Shown here: positions 9,525 to 28,713 of the stretch, piece after piece
Numbering within the stretch: the stretch's first letter is position 1
How the letters are laid out: the number at the start of each line of letters is the position of its first letter
Source of the DNA: Candidatus Omnitrophota bacterium
GTDB lineage: Bacteria > Omnitrophota > Gorgyraeia > Gygaellales > Profunditerraquicolaceae
Direction of reading: 5' to 3'
Assembly: GCA_049517335.1 (NCBI GenBank)
Contig: JBEKSD010000002.1
Location: forward strand, 78,523 to 142,522
DNA length: 64,000 bases
Translations under genes and position numbers: made by a program
The notes under the pieces: model-generated
Databases searched by the model: none
Seen by the model: the letters and a program-made list of their open reading frames with translations, nothing else
What the model was told of the DNA's origin: nothing

Positions 9525-10264
9525 AAATTAAAGATAGAATAATCAAATATTTAAGCGCAGCAATATTCCTTATTGCCGGCCTTAGCTTTATAGCCAAATT
9601 CGGAGGGCCTCAGATATTAAAGTATTACGTCCAAACAGGCATAGGCGACTGCGAAAGAATCCCGATTTTTTGCATGTCTCCGTACGAAACGATAGACGTT
9701 TCAAAACCGAATTCCGCATACATGGCCGAACTTGTTCCTTATAAAGCTTACAAAATCTCGGCATATGTACCGAAAGGTTTTAACGTCGTGCAGGAACTGA
9801 TTATGAAAACAAGCTTTAAAAAACATAAGCGCATGTTTAAGGGAGATATTATTTATATGCTTTGTCAGGATAAAGATTTTTTTACCCGACTATACCCCCA
9901 ATTGAAAAAAGAGGGCGTAAACGACAACTATGAGTTCATCCGCCGCGTTATGTACGCGAAAGAGGATGAAATCAATAATATAACCGATACCTTTTTCGTA
10001 ATTATGAAAGGAATATTCATTCCGGATATCGGAAACCAGTTAAACGCAAAAATGATACGGGTAAATCTAGGCGGATTCAAAGGCTTCATAAATTACAATA
10101 TGGAAAAAACGGGGAATTATTTTGACTGTAACGTTGTTGACGGAGAAGGGAAATTTTTTAAGGTATATATTAAAGATAAAAGCAGGGTTCTTAATTTGGA
10201 GAAGGTTTTTACCATTCTCTCAACCGTAAAATGCATTGACGCGGGAATTCTCTTGCCCCGTTAG
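9521..10264 (+). CDS. hypothetical protein with N-terminal transmembrane anchor
   Basis: 247 aa ORF; 4-nt overlap with panB; no recognisable motif. Confidence 0.4.
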   Translation: MKIKDRIIKYLSAAIFLIAGLSFIAKFGGPQILKYYVQTGIGDCERIPIFCMSPYETIDVSKPNSAYMAELVPYKAYKISAYVPKGFNVVQELIMKTSFKKHKRMFKGDIIYMLCQDKDFFTRLYPQLKKEGVNDNYEFIRRVMYAKEDEINNITDTFFVIMKGIFIPDIGNQLNAKMIRVNLGGFKGFINYNMEKTGNYFDCNVVDGEGKFFKVYIKDKSRVLNLEKVFTILSTVKCIDAGILLPR

Positions 10265-23222: not shown

Positions 23223-23405
23223 ATGAGGCTTTTGGCAATTGAAAAGAAAGCGAAGGATTTAGGTATCACTGATACCTGGAAATACTCCAAGAGTGACTTA
23301 ATTAAGCTTATCCAGAAGAAAGAAGGCAATCAGGAGTGTTTTGCCACAAAATCGCGTTCAAAATGCAACCAGTTTATTTGCTGCTGGAGGGCTGACTGCA
23401 CATGA
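23223..23405 (+). CDS. small protein with Rho_N/SAP-like N-terminus and C-terminal Cys cluster
   Basis: 60 aa; LLAIEKKAKDLGITDTWKYSKSDLIKLI then C-x7-C-x4-CC-x4-C. Confidence 0.35.
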   Translation: MRLLAIEKKAKDLGITDTWKYSKSDLIKLIQKKEGNQECFATKSRSKCNQFICCWRADCT

Positions 23406-23587
23406 AATATCGCTGCCAGATCTGTGACAGGGATATTGACGATTATGTCAGCATTGCCCATATAAAGGCCGAAGAATATCTTATTGATCTTATTCAAAAA
23501 GACCATCCGGAATGGCACGAAAGCAAGAAAACCTGCCATAAATGTATCGAATATTACCGAAAATTAGTTAAAGAAAACGAAATTTAG
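23402..23587 (+). CDS. small zinc-ribbon protein
   Basis: 61 aa; CxxC ... CxxC; ATGA overlap with the preceding small ORF. Confidence 0.4.
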   Translation: MKYRCQICDRDIDDYVSIAHIKAEEYLIDLIQKDHPEWHESKKTCHKCIEYYRKLVKENEI

Positions 23588-23592
23588 ACAAT

Positions 23593-23628
23593 AAACCGGG
23601 GTCGGAATTAATTCCGACCCCGGTTTTT
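23593..23628. terminator. Perfect 28-bp palindrome flanked by A3/T5 (bidirectional terminator-like); founding copy of a palindromic element family
   Basis: AAACCGGGGTCGGAATTAATTCCGACCCCGGTTTTT immediately after a stop codon. Confidence 0.65.
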
Positions 23629-23696: not shown

Positions 23697-24035
23697 ATGC
23701 AGTTACAAGGAAGGCCCAAAAAATATAGGATTGTGCGCACAGACCCCAAAATTAGCCAATTTAGCCCAAGGGGCCGTCCAGGAAGGCCTAATGAAGCGGA
23801 TCTCACTATGGATGAGTACGAAGCCATACGGCTTTCAGATTATATGGGATTATCCCAGAAAGAAGCCAGCCAATCAATGCACATATCCCAGCAAACTTTC
23901 AGCAGAATCCTGAAAAAGGCCCGGAAAACAATAGCAAAAGGGCTGATTGACGGAGCAACTATAAAGATTCAGGGCGGCCAGTACGTAGTTACATCCCACA
24001 AAGATTTCCAACCAAATTCCTACAAAAAACTCTAA
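23697..24035 (+). CDS. DUF134/UPF0251 family putative DNA-binding protein
   Basis: 112 aa; N-terminal GRPKKYR...RGRPGRP and an HTH-like segment. Confidence 0.6.
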   Translation: MQLQGRPKKYRIVRTDPKISQFSPRGRPGRPNEADLTMDEYEAIRLSDYMGLSQKEASQSMHISQQTFSRILKKARKTIAKGLIDGATIKIQGGQYVVTSHKDFQPNSYKKL

Positions 24036-24346
24036 AATTCCGGTAAATACAAGTAAACAACTATAGACGCTGAGCCTCAAAAGCGGTCGACTTGGTACCA
24101 AAATCGCTATTTGCTCAACTTCCTATAATATACATTATGTTAACTTGATGATATTGAGAAAATTACCTTATCTTATTCTATCCCAATAGGTTATATTATA
24201 TTGTTTTTATGCTGTGGATAAGTCAAAAACCGTTTCCTTAAACTTACTTCTTTTTTAAAAGGTTGATATTCCGGTGGGATTACTTTCATTTTCCTATAAG
24301 GTTTTTTTGCGTTTAATCGCTTATTTCATCTTGCGGGTAAAACTGA

Positions 24347-24670
24347 CTATGGCAGGATAGATTGAGTTTTCTCCAAAGCGGTCGCGTTAATCCGGTCTAC
24401 GGCTTTCAATAAGCCCTCCCTCCGTTTTTGCTCAAAAAACAAGACAGGGTAGCTTTCTCGGCAAAGCTCCCACTCCCAGAGCCCTGATTTCAGGGGTTCT
24501 AGGGCCTGTTTTAGCCAGTATTTTAAGGGATCTCTGGAAATCCCTATAACTTCATTGATTGCATGAGTCGAAGTTTTCTGAGCTGAAAAACTGCCTATTT
24601 CCGGGCCATTTAGCCAAAGATGAATGGTAAAACTAAGGAGATTTTGCTCCCTGAGCTGCCTGGTAACCAT
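24347..24670 (-). CDS. orphan hypothetical ORF (possibly a gene fragment)
   Basis: 107 aa; no recognisable motif; followed by about 310 nt of AT-rich non-coding DNA. Confidence 0.25.
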   Translation of the reverse strand: MVTRQLREQNLLSFTIHLWLNGPEIGSFSAQKTSTHAINEVIGISRDPLKYWLKQALEPLKSGLWEWELCRESYPVLFFEQKRREGLLKAVDRINATALEKTQSILP

Positions 24671-24803
24671 AACCTATCCAGGCTCTTATAAATTGGGGGT
24701 TTCTGGAACCACTAGGAAAGGTATACGAGTGGCCAATTGACTTGGGTAAACCGGGGTCAGAGTCTAAGGGTTCTAACTCTAATTAATGCGTAAAATCATT
24801 TGA

Positions 24804-26522
24804 TTATTTTGGGAGTTTTTTTAAGCTATATAAAGCTGCCTGATTTGCGGGATCTATTGTTAATGTTTTCTGCCACATCTTTCTTGCTTCATCATAATTA
24901 TTCATTTTAGCATAAGTAATCCCAAGCCCGTTATATGCCTCAGGGTATTCTTTATTTAATTCTACGGCTTTTTCGTAATACCTAATCGCATCTATATATC
25001 TTCCGTTTTGCCCTACAGCGCTGGCTAAATTATTCCATGCCCTATAAAAATTAGGGTCTAAATCCAAAGCTGCCTTAAACTCCTCAATGGCTTCTGCGGT
25101 CATCCTTTTATTGAAATAACATTTACCCAATTCATTATGGTCTTCCGCATAATTCTTATCTAAACTTACCGCGATTTTATACTCTTTAATCGCTTCATCC
25201 AATAAACCTCTTTCAACATAAAAAGCGGCTAAGGTACTATGAGGCAGGGAATTGGTAGGATATTTATCTACCATATTCATCCAAAAAATAATATTGTTTT
25301 TATAGTAGAAATTACCCGTGAACGTAAAAATAGCATAAAAAATAATAATAGCTATTGCTATATTCTTAGAAAACTTCGAAATTAGCAACGCAAGGATCAA
25401 ACAAAAACCTACTGCCGGTAAATATAAATAACGGGGGGCAATGTAATTTGATAACGGGTATATTATGTTAGAAACTGGAATAAGACAGGCAAAGAACCAA
25501 AATACCCCAAATGCAACCAAAGGAAGCTTCTTATGCAATTTAAACGTAGTAAAAACAATTGATATTATCAATAAAACCGAAATTATAACTTTCAGGTTAA
25601 GTAACGAGTATGAAATTAAACCTGGATCATCCGGCAACGTAGAATGAATATTAACGGGAAAGAACATCCATTGAACATATCTGGCCAAAACCCTTAGCAT
25701 GGTAAGAATATTTGTATATAAATTCCTCATTGGGTATGTAATTAACGGATTATCAATGCTAGCCATTACAAAAAACCTGATAAAAATATAAAAAATCAAA
25801 ACGCCTAAATACCCCAAATAATACCTTTTAAAATGAGAAATAACGTCTTTGGGCCTTTTATTCAACAAATAATCGTAACCTAATAAAAGAATAGGGAAGG
25901 TAACAGACATTTCTTTAGAAAATAATGCCAAACAAAAAGAGACTAAAGAAGAGAAGTAAAACAACGCCCTCCTCCCTGCCTCCTCCCCCCTGCTTTTTAT
26001 ATAAAAAATAAAGGCTAAAATATAAAACAAGAAAGCAAGCAGATCCTTCCTAAAAGAAATACAGTTTACTGCTTCTACATTTACAGGATGAAGAGCAAAA
26101 AACAAAGATGCCAATATGGCTACTACCTCATTTCCTACTATTAAGTTTATAAACATGAAAAGAAGCAACGCATTCAACATGTGCAGGATAAGGTTTGTAA
26201 AGTGGTACCCGAAAGGGTTCAGCTTCCAAAAAGAATAATCTAGGAAATAAGTAAAAGTCCCTATCGGTCTGTATGTAAACTCTCCGGAACCTGTATCCTT
26301 TTTTCCAAGATAATCCAAATCCGAAACTTTAGTCAGGTAACTTCTGTTAAAAAGACGGGGGAAATTATTCCAGGATTTGACAAAATCATTATTCACTATA
26401 ACTGTAGAATCATCCCATATAAATGAATTTTGGAGGGAATTAGAATAAGCTAATGCCGTAAAAAACACTATGAATATAATAACCCATTTATTACCGCGTA
26501 AAATTGTATCTTTCGATATCAT
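24804..26522 (-). CDS. multi-pass membrane protein with C-terminal TPR repeats (DUF1736/PMT-like glycosyltransferase architecture)
   Basis: 572 aa; more than 8 TM helices, then 4-5 TPR units (AEAIEEFKAALDLDP, YDEARKMWQKTLTIDP). Confidence 0.6.
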   Translation of the reverse strand: MISKDTILRGNKWVIIFIVFFTALAYSNSLQNSFIWDDSTVIVNNDFVKSWNNFPRLFNRSYLTKVSDLDYLGKKDTGSGEFTYRPIGTFTYFLDYSFWKLNPFGYHFTNLILHMLNALLLFMFINLIVGNEVVAILASLFFALHPVNVEAVNCISFRKDLLAFLFYILAFIFYIKSRGEEAGRRALFYFSSLVSFCLALFSKEMSVTFPILLLGYDYLLNKRPKDVISHFKRYYLGYLGVLIFYIFIRFFVMASIDNPLITYPMRNLYTNILTMLRVLARYVQWMFFPVNIHSTLPDDPGLISYSLLNLKVIISVLLIISIVFTTFKLHKKLPLVAFGVFWFFACLIPVSNIIYPLSNYIAPRYLYLPAVGFCLILALLISKFSKNIAIAIIIFYAIFTFTGNFYYKNNIIFWMNMVDKYPTNSLPHSTLAAFYVERGLLDEAIKEYKIAVSLDKNYAEDHNELGKCYFNKRMTAEAIEEFKAALDLDPNFYRAWNNLASAVGQNGRYIDAIRYYEKAVELNKEYPEAYNGLGITYAKMNNYDEARKMWQKTLTIDPANQAALYSLKKLPK

Positions 26523-26554
26523 ATTTTAAGCCTATTCTTTACAGTATAATTATT

Positions 26555-27763
26555 TTATAAGGATTCAACGATGGCATTATAAACCGTTTCCGGCTTAATT
26601 GTTTTAAGGCACTTATTATCGCTGCAATCAGAATTTCTATGGTTTTGGGCTGATAAGCAGGGTGAACATGGCCAATTTGAGTAAATTATGCGGCTATTCT
26701 TACCTATGGGCCCGAAAACCTGCGGGCTTTCTGGTCCAAAAAGAATAAATTTCTTGATCACAGTAAGCATTGCTAAATGCACCAGTCCGCAGTCATTTGA
26801 AATCAGAACTTCTGAAATAAGGAATAATTCCATAAGTTCTTCTAGTGAAGTTTTTCTGGTAAAATCTATACACCGGGAATTACTGATAGCTCCGCGCATT
26901 AACCCGCTCTTTTTAGTGGCACCTTCGGTTCCTATGATAAGTATATAGTTCCTGCTATCTTGTAATAATAAATTAACAAGTGAAATAAAATTCTCCAACG
27001 GCCACTCCCTTAAAGGCAATACGCCTTCACCGGGATTAATAAGGAATATCCTGCGTTTGCTACCGATACCAGCATCTTTTAATTTCTTTTCTATGCTTTC
27101 TTTAATCTTAACCTTTGAGGCGTATTCCGGGAATACTAATTCTTCTTCAATTATTGCCGAATCTAATTGCGGATGATCTTTGGAGCTCGCTGAAACCGCT
27201 TGGGCAAAAGAAAGATAGGTTTTACTTACATGATTTGAAGGGTTATATTGAATTTTATGTGTGAGGAGGCTGCCTCTATATAACCCTTCAAAAGTATAAT
27301 GATGCAATCCTACTCTCTTTTTAGATCCGGACAGATAAGAAATTATTGCAGAAAAACGCGAAAAGAACTCCAAATCGAAAATAATATCTACGCCTTTTCT
27401 TCTTAATTGCCAGATTATTTTCAATGTATCCAAGACAAAAGTCAGAGGCGTTGTTTCGTCTATCGTAAGGATGTTACTATCCGGTATTATATTTCCGAGT
27501 AATTTAAAAATATCCTTATTTTTATTAAATGTTACAAAAAATACTTCGGCTAAAGGGTATTCTCTTTTTATATGGTTTAAAAGCGGATAGGATAAAATAA
27601 CTGTGCCTAATTCTGGTAGCTTTATAAAGGCTATTTTCTCAGGCGGTTTGTTTATTTTATTTTTTATGCGCAGTATTTTAGAAATATAAACCAGGATACT
27701 TAATAAAAAACATAAGGGTATTCCCAGCCAATAATCTATTTTTCTTGCCTTATCTATGTCCAT
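26555..27763 (-). CDS. Glycosyltransferase family 9 (heptosyltransferase-like)
   Basis: 402 aa; GT9 two-domain layout; C-terminal ...ISNDCGLVHLA... core. Confidence 0.7.
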   Translation of the reverse strand: MDIDKARKIDYWLGIPLCFLLSILVYISKILRIKNKINKPPEKIAFIKLPELGTVILSYPLLNHIKREYPLAEVFFVTFNKNKDIFKLLGNIIPDSNILTIDETTPLTFVLDTLKIIWQLRRKGVDIIFDLEFFSRFSAIISYLSGSKKRVGLHHYTFEGLYRGSLLTHKIQYNPSNHVSKTYLSFAQAVSASSKDHPQLDSAIIEEELVFPEYASKVKIKESIEKKLKDAGIGSKRRIFLINPGEGVLPLREWPLENFISLVNLLLQDSRNYILIIGTEGATKKSGLMRGAISNSRCIDFTRKTSLEELMELFLISEVLISNDCGLVHLAMLTVIKKFILFGPESPQVFGPIGKNSRIIYSNWPCSPCLSAQNHRNSDCSDNKCLKTIKPETVYNAIVESL

Positions 27764-27937
27764 ATTGACTTTAATTATATCACAGATTCGGCAAATACGC
27801 GCCCTAACTTATTATCTTATCTAGCTGCCACCTGAGGCTGGTATTATTAAACGATATTTGATAAATGTTTACGCCGGTATCTATGGAAAAATAATATACA
27901 GATTCCTGACCCCGGTTTAAAGATTTTCCTTTTGAAG

Positions 27938-28543
27938 TCAATATTTTCTTATTACTGTAATAAGCTTGCCTATAACCTTAAATTCTTCAAATATTGGCGG
28001 GTAGTTCTGATTAGCGGCTTCTAAATGGAACTTACCGGCTTTAGTACGTAGCCTCTTTAAAGTAACTTCATTATTATCTAAGAGTGCCGCGACTATATCG
28101 TTATTACTGGCATCAGGCCGTTTTTTGATAATGGCAATATCGCCATCAAGAATTCCAGCACCAATCATACTGTCGCCTTTAACCCTTAAAGCAAAAACAT
28201 CATCAAAGCCTAAGCGGCCAAGGAATAAATCATCGGCATCCACATAACCCTGGATTTCTTCATAAGCCAGATTCGGCTTACCGGCCATTATGGTGCCAAT
28301 TATGGGAATCTTGTTAAAGCTGGCGCACTCAGTTAATTCAATTGCCCGGGATTTATTGTTCATACGCCTGACCAAGCCTTTCTGCATTAAAGCCTTTAAA
28401 TAGTCCCTTACTGTGCCCGTGGATTTAAACCCCAGCTCCTCCCCTATTTCACGGATTGTAGGAGGGAGCCTCTCCCCTACCTGTTTACGGATAAAATTAA
28501 GCACTTTTTCCTGCTTCGCAGTCAAATTCGGCTTCTTTTCCAT
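27938..28543 (-). CDS. lexA: LexA repressor
   Basis: about 201 aa from the internal start MEKKPN; N-terminal wHTH IREIGEELGFKSTGTVRDYLKALMQKG; cleavage site A-G; S24 peptidase VKGDSM...K dyad. The track start at 28564 lies inside the operator palindrome. Confidence 0.85.
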   Translation of the reverse strand: MEKKPNLTAKQEKVLNFIRKQVGERLPPTIREIGEELGFKSTGTVRDYLKALMQKGLVRRMNNKSRAIELTECASFNKIPIIGTIMAGKPNLAYEEIQGYVDADDLFLGRLGFDDVFALRVKGDSMIGAGILDGDIAIIKKRPDASNNDIVAALLDNNEVTLKRLRTKAGKFHLEAANQNYPPIFEEFKVIGKLITVIRKY

Positions 28544-28555
28544 GCTTCCACATAT

Positions 28556-28573
28556 ACCACACATTTGTGTGGT
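28556..28573. promoter_or_regulatory. Perfect palindrome ACCACACA-TT-TGTGTGGT in the lexA promoter spacer (candidate LexA operator/SOS box)
   Basis: Lies between a TTGACA -35 and a TATATG -10 on the minus strand, 13-30 nt upstream of the lexA start codon. Confidence 0.45.
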
Positions 28574-28713
28574 TTGTCAAGAAAAAAAACAAGCACCTTA
28601 AGTTTTTGTTCAGCGCAGTCTTTTGCACAAAGCGCAAAGGAAAAGTGCCTTATTATAGTAACATGAAAATATTTGAGAGTATTTCGATAAAATGGTAGAC
28701 GGAATGCAGCGTC

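What the first reader, a model, noticed from the sequence alone, without database searches (positions are those of the whole stretch)
28556..28573. Perfect 18-bp palindrome ACCACACATTTGTGTGGT inside the lexA promoter: candidate lineage-specific SOS box
The palindrome sits in the spacer between a TTGACA -35 and a TATATG -10, directly upstream of lexA, which is the classical autoregulatory arrangement. The sequence differs from the E. coli (CTGT-N8-ACAG) and Gram-positive (GAAC-N4-GTTC) boxes, so it may define the LexA motif of this lineage. The 5-prime-extended ORF call starts inside the palindrome and is probably wrong. No second copy was seen in this window, even near the polX or radical-SAM DNA-repair genes.
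Basis: partly seen in the sequence, partly recalled or inferred. Interest (0 to 1): 0.5.

Follow-up and report, generated by a model that had tools for sequence, protein, structure and literature searches.

The report
Undescribed LexA operator of PVC bacteria
The palindrome in front of lexA is very probably the binding site of the LexA repressor: a DNA-damage (SOS) box with a sequence not reported in the literature I could search, kept unchanged in Omnitrophota and also found in contigs from genome bins labelled Planctomycetota and Verrucomicrobiota.

Summary
The inverted repeat is real, but it is not a perfect 18-mer. It has 8-nt arms (ACCACACA/TGTGTGG-T) around a non-palindromic TT, and the conserved unit is the 16-bp core CCACACA-WW-TGTGTGG (28557-28572). 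Taken alone, a repeat of this size is no rarer than chance in the window. Its weight comes from position and conservation.

- **Position.** It fills the spacer between TTGACA and TATATG of the lexA promoter. The lexA ATG lies 7 nt after the -10, which implies a leaderless mRNA.
- **Conservation in Omnitrophota.** In 58 Omnitrophota loci found through the LexA protein, the core occurs exactly once per locus, always at the promoter of lexA or its operon (53 exact, 5 with one mismatch).
- **Wider spread.** The same core precedes lexA genes only 33-57% identical to this one, including bins labelled Planctomycetota (GC about 0.7).
- **Other genes.** In Verrucomicrobia-labelled contigs it sits at promoters of a Y-family polymerase, ydjM and a small membrane protein.
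- **Protein match.** LexA proteins linked to the box share the recognition helix STG(T/S)VRD(Y/H)L. Equally distant LexA proteins without the box do not.

The usual operon is lexA, a ~102-aa gene, then dinB. In this window that cassette is broken.

Verdict: a LexA operator of a motif class I could not find described. The mechanism is ordinary, and LexA binding is untested.

The parts
28557..28572 (.). Core operator CCACACA-TT-TGTGTGG (reads CCACACAAATGTGTGG on the lexA strand); inferred LexA dimer binding site
   Evidence: The core is exact in 53 of 58 Omnitrophota lexA-operon promoters, and the other 5 have one mismatch. All 14 specified positions are invariant or nearly so (at least 79 of 80) in 80 unique promoters.
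28556..28573 (.). The 18-bp stretch as reported. The outer A/T pair is less conserved: the base 5' of the core is A in 58 of 80 promoters, and the 3' T is the first base of the -10.
28575..28580 (-). -35 hexamer TTGACA, 2 nt upstream of the core
   Evidence: TTGACA is conserved in orthologues at 1-2 nt from the core. The promoter scanner calls the orthologous promoters.
28551..28556 (-). -10 hexamer TATATG. The preceding TGTGG of the operator's right arm supplies a TG-type extended -10.
   Evidence: T-A-T consensus at positions +16 to +18. One search shows the window's hexamer fails the scanner's T6 rule.
28581..28590 (-). T-rich stretch (TTTTTTTTC on the lexA strand) immediately upstream of the -35, conserved in orthologues; possibly an UP-like element
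   Evidence: T in 55-65 of 80 promoters at positions -16 to -10
27938..28543 (-). lexA, 201 aa. The start ATG at 28543 lies 7 nt after the -10, so the mRNA is inferred to be leaderless. The Ala-Gly cleavage site and the Ser and Lys catalytic residues align with E. coli LexA.
   Evidence: The ATG lies 27-30 nt after the core start in 41 of 58 loci.
28544..28564 (-). Spurious 7-codon N-terminal extension (MCGICGS) of the longer ORF call. It consists of operator and -10 sequence.
   Evidence: Many database entries of 207/208 aa carry the same extension.
27804..27911 (-). Remnant (last 35 codons) of the ~102-aa gene that normally follows lexA
24333..24764 (-). Remnant of the Y-family polymerase gene (dinB residues ~229-382), with stops and frameshifts. 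Two inserted glycosyltransferase-type genes (26555-27763 and 24804-26522) separate it from lexA.

Best explanation
The 16-bp dyad CCACACA-WW-TGTGTGG is the operator of the LexA repressor encoded immediately downstream.

Inferred mechanism:
1. A LexA dimer binds the dyad, one winged-helix domain per 7-bp arm.
2. The dyad occupies the whole spacer between the -35 (TTGACA) and the -10 (TATATG), and its right arm also forms the TG extension of the -10.
3. Bound LexA therefore excludes RNA polymerase, and lexA represses itself.
4. After DNA damage, RecA-stimulated self-cleavage of LexA would free the promoter. The cleavage site and catalytic residues are present in this LexA.
5. Transcription then starts at or next to the ATG, giving a leaderless lexA mRNA.

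In most relatives the same promoter also drives a ~102-aa gene and a Y-family translesion polymerase. In other PVC lineages the same dyad sits on separate dinB, ydjM and small-membrane-protein promoters. The dyad therefore defines an SOS-type regulon.

Shown here: sequence, position, conservation, association with lexA and dinB, and co-variation with the LexA recognition helix. Inferred: physical binding, repression and damage induction.
For: 1. **Position.** The dyad lies in the -35/-10 spacer of the lexA promoter. Orthologous promoters score 11 of 12 with a TG extension.

2. **Phylogenetic footprint.** 58 Omnitrophota loci were retrieved through the protein, not the DNA. The core occurs once per locus, always at the lexA or lexA-operon promoter, and nowhere else in 875 kb at up to 2 mismatches. 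In 80 unique promoters, core positions carry 1.9-2.0 bits, against 0-0.5 bits between the -10 and the ATG.

3. **Centre flips.** The centre is AA in 41 promoters and TT in 36, with only 3 AT or TA. The site therefore flips orientation freely, as expected for a symmetric dimer site.

4. **The promoter-operator unit is kept when genes intervene.** When cargo genes (RhuM/Fic, KilA-N, Bro-N, DUF3800) lie between the promoter and lexA, the unit sits intact 0.5-1.2 kb upstream.

5. **Deep conservation.** The same core precedes lexA genes 33-57% identical to this one. These include contigs of bins labelled Planctomycetota or Candidatus Brocadiia with GC 0.68-0.72.

6. **Promoters of other genes.**
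 - A divergent dinB/ydjM pair has the core abutting the dinB ATG, in contigs labelled Verrucomicrobiae (L344, L345, L269).
 - A one-mismatch copy abuts dinB in L347-349, whereas ydjM loci with no adjacent dinB lack the core.
 - A stand-alone dinB carries it (L238).
 - Stand-alone p102-like genes are linked to it: directly downstream of the core in L231, and on the same contig in L239.
 - A leaderless 56-aa membrane protein in Verrucomicrobiia-labelled contigs carries it. There the flanks differ between loci but the core does not.

7. **Protein and site co-vary.** All 14 box-associated LexA proteins share STG(T/S)VRD(Y/H)L, or VSTVRDHL in one case, in helix 3. Four outgroup LexA proteins, about as distant from the window's protein as the most divergent box-associated ones (36-40% identity over the full protein), and E. 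coli LexA have other residues there. None of 15 outgroup lexA promoters has CACA-N2-TGTG.

8. **Cleavage machinery.** LexA domains and cleavage residues are present.
Against: - No binding or expression data exist.
- The window itself has no second copy, and its genome could not be scanned.
- Within Omnitrophota, every confirmed site belongs to the lexA operon or possibly to stand-alone p102-like genes of uncertain taxon. A wider regulon is shown only in contigs carrying other phylum labels.
- recA, uvrA and imuAB promoters were never sampled.
- The LexA gene of the Verrucomicrobia-labelled genomes that carry the dinB, ydjM and peptide sites was not identified. The published Verrucomicrobia LexA motif is different (TGTTC-N4-GAACA, PMC4951493).
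- Part of the right arm's conservation could come from its role as an extended -10.
- Phylum labels come from metagenome bins.
- The metagenome sites were found by exact pattern, which inflates their apparent invariance.
Confidence: 0.85

Rival explanations
1. The dyad is the operator of a cassette-specific LexA paralogue that controls only a self-contained lexA, p102, dinB mutagenesis module, which may be horizontally mobile. It would not be the box of a genome-wide SOS regulon. A separate LexA or other regulator would handle recA, uvrA and the rest.
For: - In 875 kb around Omnitrophota lexA genes, the only sites are at the lexA operon.
- The module of operator, lexA, small gene and IMS polymerase recurs in Omnitrophota and in Planctomycetota-labelled contigs.
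- Verrucomicrobia have a published, different LexA motif and diverged lexA duplicates (PMC4951493).
- Phage-type cargo genes (KilA-N, Bro-N, RhuM/Fic) associate with the module.
Against: - Sites also occur at ydjM and at a small membrane protein gene away from lexA.
- In this window the polymerase cassette is dead, yet LexA and its operator are intact and 92-95% identical to relatives. That argues LexA has other work to do.
- No second lexA was seen in any fetched locus, although only 20 kb per genome was visible.
Confidence: 0.25
2. The dyad is bound by a regulator other than LexA, for example the ~102-aa protein encoded after lexA or an unlinked factor, and merely happens to sit at the lexA promoter.
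For: - Binding is untested.
- The 102-aa protein is uncharacterised, with only a weak DUF6504 match, and it co-occurs with the site in most loci.
Against: - The window has lost all but 35 codons of that gene, yet keeps a perfect operator.
- The Verrucomicrobia-labelled dinB, ydjM and peptide sites have no such gene beside them.
- The LexA recognition helix co-varies with presence of the site.
- LexA autoregulation through a dyad in its own promoter is the rule in every lineage studied (PMC8565304, PMC4951493).
Confidence: 0.07
3. The repeat is only a promoter feature or a chance or structural hairpin: the right arm as a TRTG/TG extended -10, with the left arm a hitch-hiker, or a terminator-like stem.
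For: - A repeat of this size is not rarer than chance in the window.
- TGTGG directly before the -10 matches an extended -10.
- Most hits to the core in viral contigs, and many in metagenome contigs, are plain hairpins or terminators in unrelated DNA.
Against: - The left arm has no promoter role but is as invariant as the right arm.
- At the Verrucomicrobia-labelled dinB promoter the dyad sits in a different register, over the -10 and the start point.
- In the leaderless arrangement the dyad lies upstream of the inferred transcription start, so it is not in the lexA mRNA.
- The RNA fold of the region is unremarkable (z = -1.4).
- The AT-rich core persists in genomes of GC 0.7.
Confidence: 0.03

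Closest known systems
Verrucomicrobia LexA box TGTTC-N4-GAACA (Erill et al. 2016, PMC4951493)
   Same: It is a palindromic LexA operator in lexA promoters of a PVC phylum, defined first by comparative genomics of lexA, recA and imuA promoters. The motif differs from both the E. coli and the Gram-positive boxes.
   Different: - The sequence is unrelated (CCACACA-N2-TGTGTGG) and longer: 14 fixed bases against 10.
- It occurs as a single site, not in tandem.
- It was found here in Omnitrophota and in Planctomycetota-labelled and some Verrucomicrobia-labelled contigs.
- recA regulation was not observed.
E. coli SOS box CTGT-N8-ACAG and Gram-positive box GAAC-N4-GTTC
   Same: The logic is the same: a LexA dimer site overlaps the promoter of lexA and of damage-inducible genes such as dinB and ydjM. 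ydjM is a known LexA target in E. coli (cited in PMC4951493).
   Different: - The half-site sequence and spacing differ.
- Neither pattern is present at 28540-28590.
- The LexA recognition helix differs: STGTVRDYL here, SPNAAEEHL in E. coli, and S(P/T)(A/S)TVH(T/K)HL in the Bacilli-type outgroups.
LexA-linked mutagenesis cassettes (lexA with imuA-imuB-dnaE2; umuDC; B. subtilis yqjW-yqzH)
   Same: A translesion polymerase and a small accessory gene are under direct LexA control, often next to lexA.
   Different: Here the cassette is lexA, a ~102-aa protein with only a weak DUF6504 match, and an IMS/IMS_C (DinB-like) polymerase, all in one operon behind one operator. No UmuD, ImuA or DnaE2 is present.
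Lambda cI transcribed from PRM (a leaderless mRNA of an S24-family repressor); my own knowledge, not tested here
   Same: An autoregulated, self-cleaving repressor is translated from an mRNA that starts at or next to its AUG.
   Different: In lambda the operators lie upstream of the -35 and activate PRM. Here the operator lies between the -35 and the -10 and should only repress.

Membership tests
LexA repressor (protein) | N-terminal LexA winged-helix DNA-binding domain plus C-terminal S24 peptidase domain | tested here: met
   PF01726 scores 70.1 bits and PF00717 scores 92.3 bits, both far above their cut-offs. The best solved relatives are LexA structures 3k2z, 7b5g and 3jso.
LexA repressor (protein) | Self-cleavage apparatus: Ala-Gly cleavage site and Ser/Lys catalytic dyad | tested here: met
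   In the alignment to E. coli LexA, IMAGKP aligns with VAAGEP, GDSM with GMSM, and VTLKRL with VTVKRL.
LexA operator (SOS box) | Dyad-symmetric site overlapping the promoter of lexA itself (autoregulation) | tested here: met
   The 8 + 2 + 8 inverted repeat fills the -35/-10 spacer.
LexA operator (SOS box) | Conserved at orthologous lexA promoters while the flanking non-coding sequence drifts | tested here: met
   53 of 58 loci have an exact core and 5 have one mismatch. Core positions carry 1.9-2.0 bits against 0-0.5 bits downstream of the -10.
LexA operator (SOS box) | Also present at promoters of other DNA-damage genes (a regulon) | tested here: inconclusive
   - Met in related lineages: dinB, ydjM, a small membrane protein and p102-like genes.
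- Not met in this window.
- This genome and the recA and uvrA promoters could not be examined.
LexA operator (SOS box) | Specific binding by LexA in vitro or in vivo | not testable with these tools
   This needs an EMSA, a footprint or ChIP. The only indirect support is co-variation of the recognition helix with the site.
Known LexA motif classes (E. coli CTGT-N8-ACAG; Gram-positive GAAC-N4-GTTC; Verrucomicrobia TGTTC-N4-GAACA) | Match to the class consensus at the lexA promoter | tested here: not met
   The sequence of 28540-28590 contains none of these patterns. The motifs listed in PMC8565304 and PMC4951493 do not include CACACA/TGTGTG arms. Full-text searches found no LexA motif for Omnitrophota or Planctomycetes.
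Leaderless mRNA | Transcription start at or within a few nt of the start codon, with no Shine-Dalgarno sequence | tested here: inconclusive
   The ATG is 7 nt after the -10 in the window and 27-30 nt after the core start in 41 of 58 loci. The intervening 7 nt vary. No transcript data are available.

The most novel reading that the evidence does not exclude
The operator, lexA, the ~102-aa gene and the Y-family polymerase form a self-regulated mutagenesis module. Its 14-base recognition code has stayed unchanged across three PVC phyla while LexA itself diverged to about 35% identity. It may coexist with, or replace, the classical LexA system: Verrucomicrobia have a different published box.

This would be a second, deeply conserved LexA lineage with its own regulon, which includes leaderless lexA and leaderless small membrane proteins. 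It would give a natural test case for the duplication-and-takeover model of SOS motif evolution.
Probability: 0.25. Interest if true: 0.65.

Novelty: new variant of a known kind. Interest (0 to 1): 0.5.

Why it matters
LexA is the standard example of a regulator whose binding motif has changed repeatedly. Seventeen motifs were counted in 2021 (PMC8565304). Within the PVC superphylum only the Verrucomicrobia box had been described, and Planctomycetes were only known not to use the E. coli box (PMC3108266).

A further, very well-defined motif has three uses:
- It lets the SOS regulon of uncultivated Omnitrophota and related Planctomycetota and Verrucomicrobiota be reconstructed from genomes.
- It flags a widespread annotation error, the 7-residue N-terminal extension on LexA.
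- It gives a simple experiment: purified LexA against a 16-bp dyad.

It also offers material for the question of how LexA and its motif co-evolve after duplication.

Tried and rejected
- **Exact protein look-up.** The window's LexA is not on record in the assembly index, so the source genome could not be retrieved.
- **Second copies.** None in the window at up to 3 mismatches. None in 875 kb of Omnitrophota loci at up to 2 mismatches. The three hits at 3 mismatches look like chance.
- **recA.** recA promoters therefore could not be tested.
- **Viral contigs.** A scan with the core gave 22 hits. Most are hairpins or terminators in unrelated DNA, and one is an RNA virus. Only L090 and L092 share the promoter architecture.
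- **Row limit.** Collection scans stop at 120 rows. The single metagenome scan therefore used a pattern meant to skip ordinary lexA promoters. It still hit the limit, so the list of non-lexA sites is incomplete.
- **Uninformative non-lexA hits.** L245 (SLT-domain gene), L247/L277, L326 and several repeat families among the metagenome hits could not be tied to the system and were set aside.
- **RNA structure.** The fold of the region is not significant. Rfam finds only two tRNAs in the window.
- **Literature.** Searches for a LexA motif in Omnitrophota or Planctomycetes, and for CACA/TGTG-type LexA boxes, returned nothing relevant.

Full report
**1. What is in the sequence**

The stretch 28556-28573 reads ACCACACATTTGTGTGGT. 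The repeat finder reports two 8-nt arms (28556-28563 and 28566-28573), fully complementary, separated by TT. It is therefore a 16-of-18 palindrome, not a perfect one.

lexA is on the minus strand. There the region reads TTGACA (28580-28575), AA, CCACACAAATGTGTGG (28572-28557), TATATG (28556-28551), TGGAAGC, ATG (28543).

The 201-aa product starting at 28543 carries LexA_DNA_bind (70 bits) and Peptidase_S24 (92 bits). It aligns with solved LexA structures, including the Ala-Gly cleavage site and the Ser and Lys catalytic residues.

The longer ORF call (208 aa) starts at the ATG at 28564, inside the repeat.

No other copy exists in the window, even with 3 mismatches.

Taken alone, the repeat is not remarkable. 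The window contains 14 perfect inverted repeats with arms of at least 8 nt and loops of at most 4 nt, against 8.7 +/- 3.6 in first-order Markov simulations.

The promoter scanner does not call the window's promoter, because TATATG lacks the T at hexamer position 6. It calls the orthologous promoters in L009 and L028 with 11 of 12 matches, an 18-nt spacer and a TG extension.

**2. Organism and orthologous promoters**

The closest LexA proteins (83-95% identical among the 120 listed) are from Candidatus Omnitrophota metagenome bins.

A search of one genome per species with the LexA protein returned 65 such loci (L002-L066). It also returned 15 outgroup loci (L067-L081), with LexA 36-40% identical, from bins labelled Bacilli, Clostridia, Riflebacteria and others.

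In the 58 Omnitrophota loci where an operator was found, the core CCACACA-NN-TGTGTGG occurs exactly once per locus, counting sites with up to 2 of 14 mismatches. It is always at the promoter of lexA or of the operon that contains lexA. In total, 53 sites are exact and 5 have one mismatch. There is no other site in 875 kb.

The context is constant: T-rich stretch, CTTGACA, 1-2 nt, core, TAT(A/G)nn.

In 80 unique lexA-operon promoters the 14 specified core positions are invariant or nearly so (at least 79 of 80). The bases between the -10 and the ATG carry 0-0.5 bits. Some of these sites were found by exact pattern, which inflates the figure. The 58 protein-anchored loci do not have that bias.

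The two central bases are AA in 41 promoters, TT in 36, AT in 2 and TA in 1. The site thus occurs in both orientations relative to the promoter, as expected for a symmetric dimer site.

**3. Promoter anatomy**

The operator fills the spacer. Its right arm ends in TGTGG directly before the -10, which is a TG-type extended -10.

In 41 of 58 loci the lexA ATG lies 27-30 nt after the core start, which is 7 nt after the -10. The intervening bases are not conserved. This points to a leaderless lexA mRNA. That is an inference; there are no transcript data.

In 11 loci the promoter-operator unit lies 0.5-1.2 kb upstream, and one or two cargo genes are inserted before lexA. These cargo genes encode RhuM/Fic, KilA-N, Bro-N or DUF3800 proteins, and they have their own Shine-Dalgarno sequences. 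The unit is therefore kept even when the first gene changes.

**4. What the operator controls**

In nearly all loci lexA is followed by two genes. The first encodes a ~102-aa protein with only a sub-threshold DUF6504 match. The second encodes a ~368-aa Y-family polymerase with IMS and IMS_C domains and a weak DUF4113 match. One Omnitrophota locus (L248) continues with a UvrD-type helicase.

In the window this cassette is destroyed:
- Only the last 35 codons of the small gene remain (27911-27804).
- Only a stop-ridden C-terminal third of dinB remains (24764-24333).
- Two glycosyltransferase-type genes (26555-27763 and 24804-26522) lie between them. No other locus has homologues of these genes.

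LexA and its operator are nevertheless intact.

**5. Sites away from lexA**

Collection scans stop at 120 rows. The single metagenome scan therefore used the core plus a -35-side pattern that skips the usual CTTGACA context. It returned two kinds of useful hit.

*More divergent lexA promoters.* These belong to LexA proteins 33-57% identical to the window's. Two of them are labelled Omnitrophota.

The GC-rich type has close relatives labelled Planctomycetota or Candidatus Brocadiia. Fetching those labelled contigs confirmed the arrangement CTTGACA-T-CCACACA(TT/TA)TGTGTGG-TATCCT upstream of lexA, an 85-aa gene and an IMS polymerase, at GC 0.68-0.72. A further locus has 2 mismatches.

*Promoters of other genes.*
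- **L269** has the core between TTGCAT and TATTCA upstream of a YdjM-family gene (41.5 bits against a cut-off of 29).
- **L344 and L345**, orthologous loci, show a divergent pair, Y-family polymerase and ydjM, with an exact core in the ~100-nt gap. The core abuts the polymerase ATG and overlaps the predicted -10 and start point of that promoter.
- **L347-349** have a one-mismatch core that again abuts the polymerase gene, while ydjM sits elsewhere without a site. **L346** has no polymerase neighbour and no site. The site therefore follows dinB.
- **L345** proteins are identical to entries from a bin labelled Verrucomicrobiae.
- **L238** is a stand-alone dinB behind TTGTTT-A-core-TATATT.
- **L231** has a stand-alone homologue of the 102-aa gene directly behind the core. 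**L239** carries a core and such a homologue on the same contig, but I did not settle their arrangement.
- **L250, L306, L308 and L339** have the core in a TTGACA-C-core-TA promoter. It sits directly before a leaderless 56-aa single-pass membrane protein, labelled Verrucomicrobiia. The flanks differ between loci but the core does not.

Small membrane proteins, ydjM and dinB are typical LexA targets in other bacteria. The first is from my own knowledge; ydjM as an E. coli LexA target is cited in PMC4951493.

**6. Does LexA itself read the site?**

This cannot be tested here, but protein and site co-vary.

All 14 LexA proteins linked to the core have STG(T/S)VRD(Y/H)L in the recognition helix, or VSTVRDHL in one case. 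They span 33-95% identity to the window protein. Four outgroup LexA proteins, about as distant as the most divergent box-associated ones (36-40% identity over the full protein), have S(P/T)(A/S)TVH(T/K)HL or STASAQYYL. E. coli has SPNAAEEHL.

None of the 15 outgroup lexA promoters has CACA-N2-TGTG, and three show the Gram-positive GAAC-N4-GTTY box.

The alternative binder, the 102-aa protein, is absent from the window and from the Verrucomicrobia-labelled sites.

**7. Comparison with what is known**

The logic, a LexA dyad over its own promoter and over a translesion polymerase promoter, is the classical SOS arrangement.

The sequence is not classical:
- None of the E. coli, Gram-positive or Verrucomicrobia consensus patterns is present.
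- The motifs listed in the 2021 review-style paper (17 classes) do not include it.
- In the PVC superphylum only TGTTC-N4-GAACA of Verrucomicrobia was described.
- Planctomycetes were noted only as not using the E. coli motif.
- Full-text searches found nothing on LexA in Omnitrophota.

I therefore class it as a new variant (a new motif class) of a known kind of element. Subscription-only literature was not searchable.

The finding that Verrucomicrobia-labelled contigs use this motif at dinB while the published Verrucomicrobia box is different stays unexplained. That paper also reports diverged lexA duplicates. A second LexA lineage is one possible explanation.

**8. Limits**

- Nothing here shows binding or regulation.
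- The genome of the window could not be scanned.
- recA and uvrA promoters were never seen.
- Phylum names come from metagenome bins.
- Within Omnitrophota proper, the only certain target is the lexA operon.

**9. Verdict**

The site is best described as the 16-bp LexA operator CCACACA-WW-TGTGTGG, shared by Omnitrophota and by lineages labelled Planctomycetota and Verrucomicrobiota. It controls at least lexA and a Y-family polymerase cassette.

Confidence that it is a LexA operator is about 0.85. Interest is moderate: the mechanism is ordinary, but the motif is new and unusually sharply defined, and the test is easy.

Noticed in passing
window 24333-27911 (minus strand): The lexA, 102-aa gene, dinB operon found in nearly all relatives is broken here. 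Only the last 35 codons of the small gene (27911-27804) and a stop-ridden C-terminal third of dinB (24764-24333) remain. Two glycosyltransferase-type genes (26555-27763 and 24804-26522) lie in between, and no other locus has homologues of them. The gene at 23697-24035, which by eye resembles the DUF134 family (no Pfam scan run), sits where L001 has a DUF134 gene, so the original synteny seems kept.
   Followed up: yes
window 28543-28556; L006-L064 at the same relative position: The lexA ATG lies 7 nt after the -10 hexamer, with no Shine-Dalgarno sequence. This spacing is kept in 41 of 58 Omnitrophota loci, which implies a leaderless lexA mRNA. The GC-rich Planctomycetota-labelled versions instead have a 30-60-nt leader with a GGAGG-type site.
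   Followed up: partly
window 28544-28564; proteins P0001, P0005, P0010 and others: Many public LexA entries from this clade are 207-208 aa long, because gene callers start at an ATG or TTG inside the operator and add MCGICGS-like residues. This looks like a systematic annotation error caused by the conserved operator.
   Followed up: partly
L001 1958-2992; L003 7826-8656; L005 1932-2468; L010 9132-9815; L014 197-847; L032 1739-2650; L006 10684-11262: Variable cargo genes are inserted into the operon between the operator and lexA, or just after lexA. They encode RhuM/Fic, Bro-N, KilA-N, ORF6N, DUF3800 and MEDS proteins. These are typical of phage antirepressor or DinD-like proteins and would be damage-inducible by their position.
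   Followed up: partly
L039 9237-9253; L013 123-139: A second, different palindrome, CGTGACA-ATT-TGTCACG, sits 13 nt before the lexA ATG in loci where a cargo gene separates lexA from the main operator. It shares the ACA-W(2-3)-TGT centre with the main box. It could be a weak LexA site or the site of another regulator.
   Followed up: no
all Omnitrophota loci plus the window (940 kb): Near matches to the core are about two-fold fewer than in Markov simulations of order 1-3: 3 against 6.6-10.4 at 3 mismatches, and 52 against 87-108 at 4 mismatches. This might reflect avoidance of spurious sites, or only codon and composition effects.
   Followed up: partly
L090 435-450 (with L246, L249, L281, L303, L305, L331, L341); L092 10024-10039: Phage-like contigs carry the same TTGAC-N-core-TATAAT architecture. 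One group has it in front of a 44-aa membrane peptide in a region with XRE-type repressors (GC 0.39-0.56 across the fetched stretches). The other has it near a terminase region (GC 0.37). These are possibly LexA-controlled phage promoters. The hosts are unknown.
   Followed up: partly
L344 5040-5055; L345 5907-5922; L347-349 10012-10027: In contigs labelled Verrucomicrobiae the core sits at the start of a stand-alone Y-family polymerase gene, divergent from ydjM in L344 and L345. The published Verrucomicrobia LexA box is TGTTC-N4-GAACA. Which LexA these genomes encode was not determined.
   Followed up: partly
80 lexA-operon promoters (core positions 7-8): The centre dinucleotide is AA or TT in 77 of 80 promoters, and it switches between close relatives with almost no AT or TA intermediates. 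This pattern suggests small inversions of the loop of the palindrome rather than stepwise point mutation.
   Followed up: no
window 23596-23623: A strong hairpin, CCGGGGTCGGAATTAATTCCGACCCCGG, flanked by A and T runs, lies between two genes on the plus strand (23402-23587 and 23697-24035). It looks like an ordinary two-way terminator.
   Followed up: no
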